Positions 1,940 through 2,011 of a DNA stretch of 64,000 nucleotides are shown in pieces. The notes beneath the pieces were generated by a model that saw only the letters and a program-made list of their open reading frames with translations, searched no databases and was not told where the DNA came from. This DNA comes from a virus. The DNA lies in the IMG/VR virus record IMGVR_UViG_3300045988_074321, positions 1 to 64,000 of that record; one strand, 5' to 3'. Position 1 is the stretch's first letter, and every line of letters starts with the position of its first letter. The translations under genes were made by a program, and so were the position numbers.

Positions 1940-2011
1940 TTGCCCTACTAGGATTCGAACCCAGACTAAATGATTTAGAGTCATCTGTGCTGACCATTAC
2001 ACCATAGGGCA
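1940..2011 (-). tRNA. suppressor tRNA, anticodon CUA (reads UAG); Gln-like backbone
   Basis: hand-folded: acceptor tgcccta/tagggca, D-stem gtg/cac, anticodon stem gatga/tcatt (one G-U), loop CTCTAAA, T-arm ctggg-TTCGAAT-cctag; architecture near-identical to tRNA-Gln(TTG) at 15386. Confidence 0.7.

What the first reader, a model, noticed from the sequence alone, without database searches (positions are those of the whole stretch)
1940..2011. Suppressor tRNA (anticodon CUA) derived from a tRNA-Gln-like scaffold
By hand-folding this is a 72-nt canonical cloverleaf with anticodon loop CTCTAAA. Its acceptor, D-arm (TGGTGTAATGGT) and discriminator A closely mirror the phage's own tRNA-Gln(TTG) at 15386..15457. 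That points to TAG being decoded as Gln. The gene lies 130 bp from a gene containing an in-frame TAG (2150..2467).
Basis: seen in the sequence. Interest (0 to 1): 0.75.

Follow-up and report, generated by a model that had tools for sequence, protein, structure and literature searches.

The report
Glutamine-type amber suppressor tRNA in crAss-like phage
This is a real phage tRNA gene that reads the stop codon TAG as glutamine so that the phage's late genes, which are full of in-frame TAGs, can be translated; this trick is already well documented in the large "Zeta" crAss-like gut phages.

Summary
A 72-nt canonical tRNA with anticodon CUA lies at 1940..2011, on the minus strand (ARAGORN; Rfam tRNA 66.3 bits, E 3e-12). 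The cloverleaf is supported by compensatory changes across 14 homologues.

The scaffold is glutamine-like. Its D-arm/acceptor motif occurs in a 185,579-species genome collection only in tRNA-Gln(UUG) and CUA suppressors. A Gln-only covariance model ranks it second in the window (75.5 bits), after the phage's own tRNA-Gln (82.8) and ahead of Glu (59.7).

TAG is a sense codon here. Five window ORFs keep their frame through 1-6 TAGs, two of them with Pfam domains that span TAGs. In relatives carrying the identical tRNA, terminase has 19 in-frame TAGs and portal 28. At the DNA level, 76% of TAG-to-sense exchanges between close terminase homologues are with CAA or CAG.

The phage is a ~186-kb Zeta-type crAss-like phage. 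CUA suppressors and TAG-to-Gln recoding of late genes are published for this group and were confirmed by proteomics in other crAss-like phages. The finding is real but already known.

Side observation: a second suppressor-like tRNA (UUA) sits directly behind a RAGATH-14 RNA. That pairing recurs in relatives, where the anticodon varies or the tRNA has decayed.

The parts
1940..2011 (-). tRNA with anticodon CUA (amber suppressor) on a Gln-type scaffold; 72 nt, no encoded CCA
   Evidence: ARAGORN. Rfam tRNA 66.3 bits. Covariation. Gln model 75.5 bits. The identical 72-mer is in 26 IMG/VR contigs of 96.5-193 kb, most of them 178-193 kb, and in 33 held loci in all.
2150..2551 (-). 133-codon ORF just upstream of the tRNA on the same strand, with four in-frame TAG codons; ends in TGA
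   Evidence: Translation. The frame is kept through the TAGs in 23 relatives at 80-100% nucleotide identity. TAG positions exchange with Gln, Glu, Asn and Thr. No Pfam or PHROG match.
2017..2136 (-). 39-codon ORF between the TAG-containing gene and the tRNA (context only)
   Evidence: Translation.
1695..1922 (-). 75-codon ORF starting 18 nt after the tRNA 3' end; no TAG. It is the first of five small TAG-free ORFs downstream.
   Evidence: The mechanical ORF 1695..1997 overlaps the tRNA only because of an upstream in-frame ATG.
2552..2875 (.). Divergent intergenic region where transcription switches from the minus-strand block (tRNA, leading to late genes beyond the window start) to the plus-strand early/replication/tRNA block; cumulative GC-skew minimum
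   Evidence: ORF map. GC-skew minimum at about 2500-3000.
51..242 (+). 63-codon ORF with one in-frame TAG
239..631 (+). 130-codon ORF with two in-frame TAGs
8114..8575 (+). PD-(D/E)XK endonuclease gene inside the tRNA cluster, with three in-frame TAGs
   Evidence: Pfam PDDEXK_5, E 2e-23. The match covers residues 9-136 and spans the TAG positions.
21864..22499 (+). GIY-YIG homing-endonuclease gene with six in-frame TAGs
   Evidence: Pfam GIY-YIG, E 6e-13, residues 1-91, spanning the first TAG.
15386..15457 (+). The phage's ordinary tRNA-Gln(UUG), used as comparator scaffold
5196..5266 (+). Second suppressor-like tRNA, anticodon UUA. It could read UAA and, by wobble, UAG. Possible auxiliary decoder.
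   Evidence: ARAGORN 'Stop (tta)'. Rfam tRNA 57.3 bits. Only 29.1 bits with the Gln model. In relatives the same scaffold carries UUA, CUA or UUG, or is degenerate.
4963..5169 (+). RAGATH-14 RNA motif, 26 nt upstream of the UUA tRNA
   Evidence: Rfam RF03145, 156.6 bits against a gathering score of 149.1. The same pairing is seen in L118 and L115 and in about 25 further loci.

Best explanation
The feature is a functional phage-encoded amber suppressor, tRNA-Gln(CUA). It belongs to a ~186-kb Zeta-type crAss-like phage of Bacteroidales.

Proposed mechanism:
1. The tRNA is transcribed from the minus strand, next to the early/late strand-switch region.
2. It receives CCA post-transcriptionally.
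3. It is charged with glutamine by the host glutaminyl-tRNA synthetase. This enzyme mainly reads U35 and the weak U1-A72 / G2-C71 acceptor end, all of which are present.
4. It then competes with release factor 1 at UAG.

This lets ribosomes read through the many in-frame TAGs in the terminase, portal and other late genes, and in a few homing-endonuclease genes, inserting Gln (genetic code 15). Most replication and nucleotide-metabolism genes carry no internal TAG and can be made before the suppressor accumulates, so the tRNA also acts as a timing gate for late proteins.

Shown here: the tRNA, its Gln-type scaffold, its strict conservation, TAG as a sense codon, and TAG equivalent to Gln codons. 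Inferred: charging by host GlnRS, competition with RF1, and temporal gating.
For: tRNA calls and score. Cloverleaf covariation: 98.3% of cells paired, 9 doubly changed pairs, slid controls at or below 45%.

The 72-mer is 100% identical in 33 loci, while the adjacent protein gene diverges to 80%.

The Gln-specific motif is found only in Gln(UUG) and CUA tRNAs across 185,579 species genomes, including genuine Bacteroidales chromosomal tRNA-Gln. Gln-only model: 75.5 bits against 59.7 for the next isotype.

Homologous CUA tRNAs in crAss-like phages are annotated tRNA-Gln, and a true Gln(CUG) tRNA matches at 59/72.

In relatives with the identical tRNA, TerL (787 aa) has 19 in-frame TAGs and portal (723 aa) has 28. 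In 64 distinct TerL genes there are 92 TAG columns with Gln 7.4-fold enriched and Tyr, Leu and Ser depleted. One column is 19 TAG / 45 Gln. 76.5% of TAG exchanges in close pairs are with CAA/CAG.

In-window ORFs keep their frame through TAG, and Pfam domains span TAGs. Six of the eight plus-strand ORFs that end in TAG reach a back-up TAA/TGA within 2-8 codons; one needs 22 and two are pieces of the TAG-containing GIY-YIG gene region.

Literature: Zeta crAss-like phages of 145-192 kb carry suppressor tRNAs and recode TAG, mostly in late genes (PMC7886860; PMC12386605, Table 1). TAG-to-Gln was confirmed by metaproteomics in crAss-like phages (PMC9523058). The late-gene gating model comes from 10.1101/2021.08.26.457843.
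Against: There are no aminoacylation or expression data for this tRNA.

Several E. coli GlnRS identity elements are absent: C3-G70 instead of G3-C70, A73 instead of G73, A36 and A38. However, cellular Bacteroidales tRNA-Gln also has A73 and a variable 3:70 pair.

The Gln model's training set was picked with a motif taken from the suppressor's own D-arm, so its score is partly circular.

Glu is 2.3-fold enriched at TAG columns, so a minor share of Glu insertion cannot be excluded from sequence alone.

The gene directly upstream of the tRNA itself contains TAGs, and a few genes in the early block do too, so the gating is not clean.

A second tRNA (UUA) could also read UAG.

The late-gene evidence comes from relatives' contigs, not from the window, which ends in an adapter at position 1.
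Confidence: 0.88

Rival explanations
1. The CUA tRNA is real but inserts an amino acid other than glutamine at UAG (Glu, Lys, Tyr, Trp or pyrrolysine).
For: ARAGORN labels it 'Pyl'. Glu and Lys are the majority residue in 22 and 14 of the 92 TAG columns. Some E. coli GlnRS identity elements are missing (sequence).
Against: The Pyl label comes from the anticodon alone. The tRNA has G18G19, a standard T-loop, a 5-bp anticodon stem and a 4-nt variable loop, which are not Pyl traits. No aminoacyl-tRNA synthetase was found among window ORFs of 100 aa or more.

Gln is by far the most enriched residue (7.4x, against 2.3x for Glu and 1.5x for Lys), and Tyr, Leu and Ser are depleted. 76.5% of close-pair exchanges are with CAA/CAG, against 5.7% for Glu codons. 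The scaffold motif is exclusive to Gln and suppressor tRNAs. Proteomics in related phages found Gln (PMC9523058).
Confidence: 0.05
2. The tRNA is not needed for decoding. It is an idle or 'pre-emergent' suppressor, or a weapon that disturbs host translation or defence proteins, as proposed for Zeta phages that carry CTA suppressors without recoding.
For: PMC12386605 lists many Zeta genomes with a CTA suppressor and no amber recoding and proposes an anti-host role. Some TerL relatives here have 0-1 TAG.
Against: In this lineage essential genes cannot be made without UAG read-through: TerL has 19 TAGs and portal 28, in contigs carrying the identical tRNA. The tRNA is invariant while its flanks diverge. 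A host-directed side effect is not excluded, but it cannot be the only role.
Confidence: 0.04
3. UAG is mainly read by another decoder, either the RAGATH-14-linked tRNA(UUA) by wobble or a host suppressor, and the CUA tRNA is redundant.
For: A UUA anticodon can read UAG as well as UAA (established behaviour of ochre suppressors; own knowledge). In three relatives the RAGATH-14-linked tRNA itself carries CUA.
Against: The RAGATH-14-linked tRNA is degenerate in many relatives (4- or 6-nt anticodon loops, D-arm deletions) and is replaced by a hammerhead-like sequence in one. Five of those loci (L133, L135, L143, L148, L149) still hold the identical CUA tRNA. The genome-wide motif search showed no cellular CUA tRNA of this scaffold in a demonstrated chromosomal context. 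The CUA hits lie on MAG contigs, two of which carry this phage's own tRNA module; the contexts of the other three were not examined.
Confidence: 0.03

Closest known systems
CUA suppressor tRNAs of crAss-like phages (Crassvirales), especially the Zeta group (Yutin et al. 2021, PMC7886860; PMC12386605)
   Same: Same kind of phage: TerL is 25-28% identical to classified Crassvirales, relatives' contigs are 178-193 kb, there are at least 26 tRNAs, and a relative's TerL carries an intein (P0003). Same anticodon, same TAG-to-Gln recoding concentrated in late genes. The tRNA is 61-62/72 identical to the CUA tRNAs of cr7_1 and cr60_1, which RefSeq labels tRNA-Gln.
   Different: Nothing essential. Table 1 of PMC12386605 lists CTA and TCA suppressors but no TTA suppressor, whereas this phage also carries a UUA tRNA. 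Phylogenetic placement inside Zeta was not computed here.
TAG-recoded Lak megaphages of Prevotella and their suppressor tRNA
   Same: The Lak-B1 homologue shares the acceptor stem, D-arm and CUA anticodon. Identity is 87.5% over the two aligned pieces.
   Different: The Lak copy is split by an insertion of about 245 nt between anticodon nucleotides 35 and 36, and ARAGORN does not call it. The window's copy is uninterrupted. Lak genomes are about 550 kb.
E. coli supE (glnV) amber suppressor, tRNA-Gln CUG->CUA (own knowledge of classical genetics)
   Same: A Gln acceptor whose anticodon reads UAG and is still charged with Gln because GlnRS relies on U35 and the acceptor end. The closest true Gln tRNA found here also has CUG, one base from CUA (Wildcat, 59/72).
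   Different: supE is a chromosomal point mutant giving partial suppression. Here the suppressor is a conserved phage gene that supports systematic recoding. Discriminator A73 and C3-G70 differ from the E. coli identity set.
Theta (HDV-like) ribozyme / tRNA modules of recoded gut phages (PMC10879173)
   Same: Structured RNAs directly adjoining phage tRNAs, one in five of which are suppressors, proposed to control tRNA maturation. The window's UUA tRNA is similarly joined to a structured RNA (RAGATH-14).
   Different: No HDV-like ribozyme flanks the CUA tRNA, even at E up to 1. RAGATH-14 lies 5' of its tRNA, whereas theta ribozymes lie 3'.

Membership tests
Canonical elongator tRNA (Rfam RF00005) | Covariance-model score above the gathering threshold, with a complete cloverleaf | tested here: met
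   66.3 bits against 29, model positions 1-71 of 71. ARAGORN call.
Canonical elongator tRNA (Rfam RF00005) | Stems maintained by compensatory changes in homologues | tested here: met
   98.3% of cells paired; 9 pairs changed on both sides; covariation score 0.533 against 0.06-0.12 for slid controls.
Amber suppressor of code-15 (TAG->Gln) phages | Anticodon CUA in a 7-nt loop with U33 and a purine at position 37 | tested here: met
   Loop is CUCUAAA.
Amber suppressor of code-15 (TAG->Gln) phages | In-frame TAG in conserved, essential genes of the same genome lineage | tested here: met
   TerL has 19 TAGs and portal 28 in contigs with the identical tRNA. Five window ORFs contain TAGs, two of them with Pfam domains across TAGs.
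Amber suppressor of code-15 (TAG->Gln) phages | TAG positions correspond to Gln codons in homologues | tested here: met
   Gln 7.4-fold enriched at 92 TAG columns. 76.5% of close-pair exchanges are with CAA/CAG.
Amber suppressor of code-15 (TAG->Gln) phages | The tRNA is charged with glutamine and delivers it at UAG | not testable with these tools
   Needs aminoacylation assays or proteomics. Shown by metaproteomics only for other crAss-like phages (PMC9523058).
tRNA-Gln scaffold (Bacteroidales type) | Acceptor/D-arm signature shared with cellular tRNA-Gln and with no other isotype | tested here: met
   The pattern search gave 13 hits: 7 Gln(UUG), 5 CUA, 1 truncated. Chromosomal context was confirmed for three Gln loci.
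tRNA-Gln scaffold (Bacteroidales type) | Scores as Gln with an isotype-specific model | tested here: met
   Home-made Gln(UUG) model: 75.5 bits, rank 2 of 28 tRNAs, next isotype 59.7. Caveat: the training set was chosen with a motif from the suppressor. tRNAscan-SE isotype models were not available.
E. coli GlnRS identity set (U1-A72, G2-C71, G3-C70, G10, U35, G36, A37, U38, G73; own knowledge) | All identity nucleotides present | tested here: inconclusive
   Present: U1-A72, G2-C71, G10, U35, A37. Absent: G3-C70 (C-G here), G36 (A, inherent to CUA), U38 (A) and G73 (A). Cellular Bacteroidales tRNA-Gln also has A73 and a variable 3:70 pair, so the E. coli rules do not transfer directly.
tRNA-Pyl | Compact D-loop without G18G19, 6-bp anticodon stem, 3-nt variable loop, atypical T-loop, and accompanying pyl genes | tested here: not met
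   The sequence has G18G19, a 5-bp anticodon stem, a 4-nt variable loop and GUUCGAAU. No synthetase or Pyl-biosynthesis domains were found in window ORFs.
Zeta crAss-like phages | TerL and portal homologous to Crassvirales | tested here: met
   TerL is 25-28% identical over about 80% of its length to classified Crassvirales terminases. PHROG terminase E 4e-60 and portal E 9e-42.
Zeta crAss-like phages | Genome of 145-192 kb with many tRNAs, inteins and homing endonucleases | tested here: met
   Relatives' contigs are mostly 178-193 kb. 26-30 tRNAs in the window. Intein domains in TerL homologue P0003. GIY-YIG and PD-(D/E)XK endonucleases in the tRNA cluster.
Zeta crAss-like phages | Phylogenetic placement inside the Zeta clade | not tested
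   No tree was built. The assignment rests on size, content and distant TerL similarity.
Theta-ribozyme-associated tRNA | HDV-like ribozyme abutting the tRNA 3' end | tested here: not met
   No ribozyme family matched in 1400..2900 at E up to 1.

The most novel reading that the evidence does not exclude
The CUA tRNA may be one half of a two-part 'code-switch' locus that straddles the early/late strand switch. The other half would be the RAGATH-14 RNA fused to a second, fast-evolving suppressor tRNA (UUA here; CUA, UUG or decayed in relatives). In this reading RAGATH-14 is a dedicated 5' leader, either a processing or sensing element or a self-cleaver, that gates maturation of that suppressor and so tunes when and how strongly stop codons are read through. 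No function for RAGATH-14 was found in the searchable literature.
Probability: 0.15. Interest if true: 0.65.

Novelty: already known. Interest (0 to 1): 0.2.

Why it matters
For annotation it matters a great deal. This contig and its relatives must be translated with code 15, or the terminase, portal and other late genes fall apart into fragments. Several public copies are also mis-binned as bacterial MAG contigs.

Biologically it is a textbook case of phage-driven TAG-to-Gln recoding and adds no new principle. The only element that may repay further work is the recurrent RAGATH-14 + suppressor-tRNA pairing nearby.

Tried and rejected
- Megablast of window 1..6000 against GenBank phages gave only adapter hits to bases 1..50.
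- A first scaffold pattern for viral contigs had one N too many and found nothing. The scan was wasted.
- The MFE fold of the 72-mer is not the cloverleaf (z = -2.3). This is uninformative for tRNAs, so I relied on covariance models and covariation.
- Full-length TerL proteins in the protein database carry Q at TAG positions. I rejected this as evidence because gene callers may have imposed code 15, and replaced it with a DNA-level codon analysis.
- Whole-window ORF-coverage comparison under alternative codes was indecisive, because most of the window is the TAG-poor early block.
- A search for a release factor or aminoacyl-tRNA synthetase among window ORFs of 100 aa or more found none.
- No ribozyme flanks the CUA tRNA.
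- Literature search for RAGATH-14 returned nothing.
- The accession numbers of relatives were not found in the held supplements of Yutin 2021.
- The sigma-70 promoter scan around the tRNA was no better than shuffled sequence: 28 sites against 24.5 expected.

Full report
**1. The observation**

ARAGORN finds 26 tRNA genes in the window. One lies at 1939..2011 on the minus strand with anticodon cta. The 'Pyl' label comes from the anticodon alone. Rfam's tRNA model matches 1940..2011(-) at 66.3 bits (gathering score 29, E 3.2e-12).

The reverse-complement sequence folds by inspection into a standard cloverleaf:
- acceptor UGCCCUA/UAGGGCA
- D stem GUGU/GCAC with loop AAUGGUCA
- anticodon stem GAUGA/UCAUU with loop CUCUAAA
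- 4-nt variable loop
- T arm CUGGG-UUCGAAU-CCUAG
- discriminator A, no encoded CCA

I aligned 14 homologues: seven CUA tRNAs, six Gln(UUG) and one Gln(CUG). On this alignment the cloverleaf pairs in 98.3% of cells, and nine pairs change on both sides. Sliding the 3' partners drops pairing to 39-45%. The thermodynamic MFE fold is not the cloverleaf, which is common for tRNAs and carries no weight. The feature is real and far beyond chance.

**2. Is TAG a sense codon here?**

Window bases 1..50 are a Nextera adapter, so the contig starts there. Bases 51..2551 hold small genes, mostly on the minus strand. From about 2876 onward nearly everything is on the plus strand. That block encodes helicases, a DnaB-like helicase, a primase-like protein, anaerobic ribonucleotide reductase, NAMPT, dUTPase, RNase H and the other tRNAs. 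The cumulative GC-skew minimum falls at the strand switch near 2500-3000.

The gene upstream of the tRNA is 2150..2551(-). It has 133 codons and four in-frame TAGs. In 23 relatives at 80-100% nucleotide identity the frame is kept through every TAG. TAG positions swap with Gln, Glu, Asn or Thr, including a direct Q/TAG exchange at codon 25.

Four more window ORFs contain TAGs:
- 51..242(+), one TAG
- 239..631(+), two TAGs
- a PD-(D/E)XK endonuclease at 8114..8575, three TAGs (Pfam E 2e-23, match spanning the TAGs)
- a GIY-YIG endonuclease at 21864..22499, six TAGs (Pfam E 6e-13)

. Of 90 non-overlapping plus-strand ORFs, 53 end in TAA, 29 in TGA and 8 in TAG. Six of the eight TAG-ended ORFs reach a back-up TAA/TGA within 2-8 codons. 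One needs 22 codons, and two are fragments of the TAG-containing GIY-YIG gene region.

**3. The rest of the genome, seen through relatives**

The exact 72-mer occurs in 26 IMG/VR contigs, most of them 178-193 kb, and in 33 held loci overall. In contig L022, read in the tRNA's orientation, the order is:
- the tRNA
- five small TAG-free ORFs
- three opposite-strand ORFs with 1-2 TAGs each
- four TAG-free genes, including a PD-(D/E)XK exonuclease-like protein and a weak GroES-like match
- a block in which nearly every gene is full of TAGs: 6, 5, 19, 28, 9, 4 and so on

. The 787-aa protein with 19 TAGs is the large terminase (PHROG E 4e-60). The 723-aa protein with 28 TAGs is the portal (E 9e-42).

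**4. Which amino acid?**

Database proteins show Q at these positions, but that could be imposed by gene callers, so I did not rely on it. Instead I fetched 73 terminase loci as DNA (64 distinct sequences, with 0-24 TAGs each) and aligned them.

At the 92 columns where any sequence has TAG, the residues encoded by ordinary codons are enriched or depleted as follows:

| Residue | Enrichment over background |
|---|---|
| Gln | 7.4x |
| Glu | 2.3x |
| His | 2.3x |
| Lys | 1.5x |
| Ser | 0.64x |
| Tyr | 0.41x |
| Leu | 0.27x |

Trp does not appear at these columns at all. One column reads 19 TAG / 45 Gln and nothing else.

Among 182 sequence pairs of 80-99.5% identity, TAG is exchanged with CAA in 48.6% of cases and CAG in 27.9%, against 5.7% for Glu codons. 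These pairs are not phylogenetically independent. No in-frame TAA occurs in any terminase. TAG therefore means glutamine. This agrees with metaproteomic proof in other crAss-like phages (PMC9523058).

**5. Is the tRNA a glutamine acceptor?**

- Within the window its best match is tRNA-Gln(UUG) at 51/72. Positions 5-19, U1-A72, G2-C71 and A73 are identical. Pairs 3:70 and 4:69 are flipped and the anticodon stem is different.
- Against GenBank phages, the closest annotated hits are CUA tRNAs of crAss-like phages cr7_1 and cr60_1, labelled tRNA-Gln, and a genuine tRNA-Gln(CUG) of Mycobacterium phage Wildcat at 59/72.
- A scan of one genome per species (185,579 species) for TNNNCTATGGTGTAATGGTNAGCAC returned 13 sites: seven tRNA-Gln(UUG), five CUA tRNAs and one truncated site. 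No other isotype appeared.
- Three of the Gln loci sit among enolase, pyruvate formate-lyase, ZnuA and similar housekeeping genes of Bacteroidales. This is the cellular Gln scaffold of the likely host group. It also carries A73 and a variable 3:70 pair.
- A covariance model built only from six Gln(UUG) tRNAs scores the phage's Gln 82.8 bits, the suppressor 75.5, Glu 59.7, Arg 53.8 and the UUA tRNA 29.1. The training set was selected through a motif taken from the suppressor, so this ranking is supportive, not independent.
- Pyl identity is rejected on structure and on the absence of pyl genes.

**6. Mechanism**

Shown: a conserved tRNA(CUA) on a Gln scaffold, invariant while its neighbours diverge, in a lineage whose essential late genes need UAG read as Gln.

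Inferred from established knowledge:
- Host GlnRS charges it. GlnRS depends chiefly on U35 and a weak 1:72 pair, which is why CUA suppressors are readily glutaminylated.
- It competes with RF1 at UAG.
- Because most early genes lack internal TAG, late proteins appear only once the suppressor has accumulated. This is the gating model of Borges et al. (10.1101/2021.08.26.457843).

No release factor or synthetase is encoded among window ORFs of 100 aa or more. The gating is imperfect, since the gene just upstream of the tRNA and two endonuclease genes in the early block also contain TAGs.

**7. Comparison with what is known**

The terminase is 25-28% identical to those of classified Crassvirales. 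The group is further characterised by a ~186-kb genome, dozens of tRNAs, an intein in a relative's terminase and homing endonucleases. This matches the Zeta crAss-like group, described as 145-192 kb, rich in introns and inteins, with suppressor tRNAs and TAG or TGA recoding mostly in late genes (PMC7886860). A 2025 survey lists CTA suppressors and amber suppression in many Zeta genomes (PMC12386605, Table 1). The tRNA family is shared with Suoliviridae crAss-like phages and with Lak megaphages, where it carries an insertion of about 245 nt. The finding is therefore correct and already known in kind. The identical sequence is already in public collections.

**8. Side observations**

A second suppressor-like tRNA (anticodon UUA, 5196..5266) lies 26 nt behind a RAGATH-14 RNA (4963..5169). 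The same RAGATH-14-then-tRNA arrangement recurs in about 30 loci. In most of them the tRNA carries UUA. In three it carries CUA and in two UUG. In about ten it has a 4- or 6-nt anticodon loop or a D-arm deletion. In one locus it is replaced by a hammerhead-like sequence.

The identical CUA tRNA is retained in five loci where this second tRNA is degenerate. That marks the CUA tRNA as the main UAG decoder. TAA remains the main stop codon, so UAA is not reassigned. No paper on RAGATH-14 was found. Theta ribozymes offer a precedent for structured RNAs attached to phage suppressor tRNAs (PMC10879173). This pairing is the only part of the locus with some potential for novelty.

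Noticed in passing
window 4963..5266 (+); also L118 3521..3815, L115 677..980 and about 25 further loci: A RAGATH-14 RNA (Rfam RF03145, 156.6 bits) is followed after 26 nt by a tRNA with the ochre-suppressor anticodon UUA. The RAGATH-14-then-tRNA arrangement recurs in relatives. No function for RAGATH-14 was found in the searchable literature.
   Followed up: partly
L008, L138, L151 (CUA); L118, L144 (UUG); L125, L133, L135, L139, L140, L148, L149, L150 (defective); L143 (hammerhead-like): The RAGATH-14-linked tRNA varies unusually among relatives. Its anticodon toggles between UUA, CUA and UUG. Many copies have 4- or 6-nt anticodon loops or D-arm deletions. One locus has a CUGAUGA...GAAA hammerhead-like sequence instead. 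TAA remains the main stop codon, so this tRNA looks dispensable or counter-selected.
   Followed up: partly
window 1..50: The window starts with a Nextera transposase adapter sequence (…AGATGTGTATAAGAGACAG). The same string matches adapter remnants at the ends of unrelated GenBank phage records. This is a contig end with untrimmed adapter.
   Followed up: yes
window 25529..26093 (+): Rfam tmRNA match (62.6 bits against 47, 565 nt for a 374-position model) ending 3 nt before tRNA-Ile. ARAGORN does not call a tmRNA here. It may be a phage tmRNA with insertions.
   Followed up: no
window 8114..8575 and 21864..22499 (+): Two endonuclease genes (PD-(D/E)XK and GIY-YIG homing type) sit between tRNA genes in the otherwise TAG-poor early block. 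They contain 3 and 6 in-frame TAGs, so these elements are adapted to the phage's code.
   Followed up: partly
L110 (Prevotella phage Lak-B1, MK250020.1 412033..412349): The Lak megaphage homologue of this suppressor is interrupted by about 245 nt between anticodon nucleotides 35 and 36 (CUCU | … | AAA). It is missed by ARAGORN and is presumably an intron-containing suppressor tRNA.
   Followed up: partly
L113/L114 (DXLM01000001.1, 186,052 bp, 'Bacteroides sp.' MAG); L115 and L123 ('Clostridium sp.' MAG); L118 ('Acholeplasmataceae' MAG): Some contigs in bacterial MAG bins are really this phage or its relatives. DXLM01000001.1 (186,052 bp) and L115 carry the same CUA and UUA tRNA genes as the window. 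L118 carries a near-identical CUA tRNA plus RAGATH-14. L123 has only a related CUA tRNA. Taxon labels on such contigs should not be used for host inference.
   Followed up: partly
window 21759..21844, 23571..23643, 16370..16446 (+): Odd tRNA calls. There is a second 'tRNA-Cys(GCA)' of 86 nt just upstream of the GIY-YIG gene. Two further Rfam tRNA hits (39.5 and 31.7 bits) are not called by ARAGORN.
   Followed up: no
window 2876..3322 and 3956..4414 (+): Two paralogous ORFs of about 150 aa (MATE(R/K)N…AAAQG…) are the first genes of the plus-strand block, next to the strand switch. No Pfam match.
   Followed up: no
window 38405..39955 and 60758..61312 (+): NAD-salvage genes (NAMPT-like, and a cytidylyltransferase-like protein that may be an NMNAT), together with an anaerobic ribonucleotide reductase (56187..58355). 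This is a large auxiliary-metabolism set in the early block.
   Followed up: no
L118 3132..3205 (-): A Pistol ribozyme (65.7 bits) lies about 300 nt downstream of the RAGATH-14/tRNA pair in this relative. This fits the origin of the RAGATH name (RNAs associated with genes associated with twister and hammerhead ribozymes).
   Followed up: no
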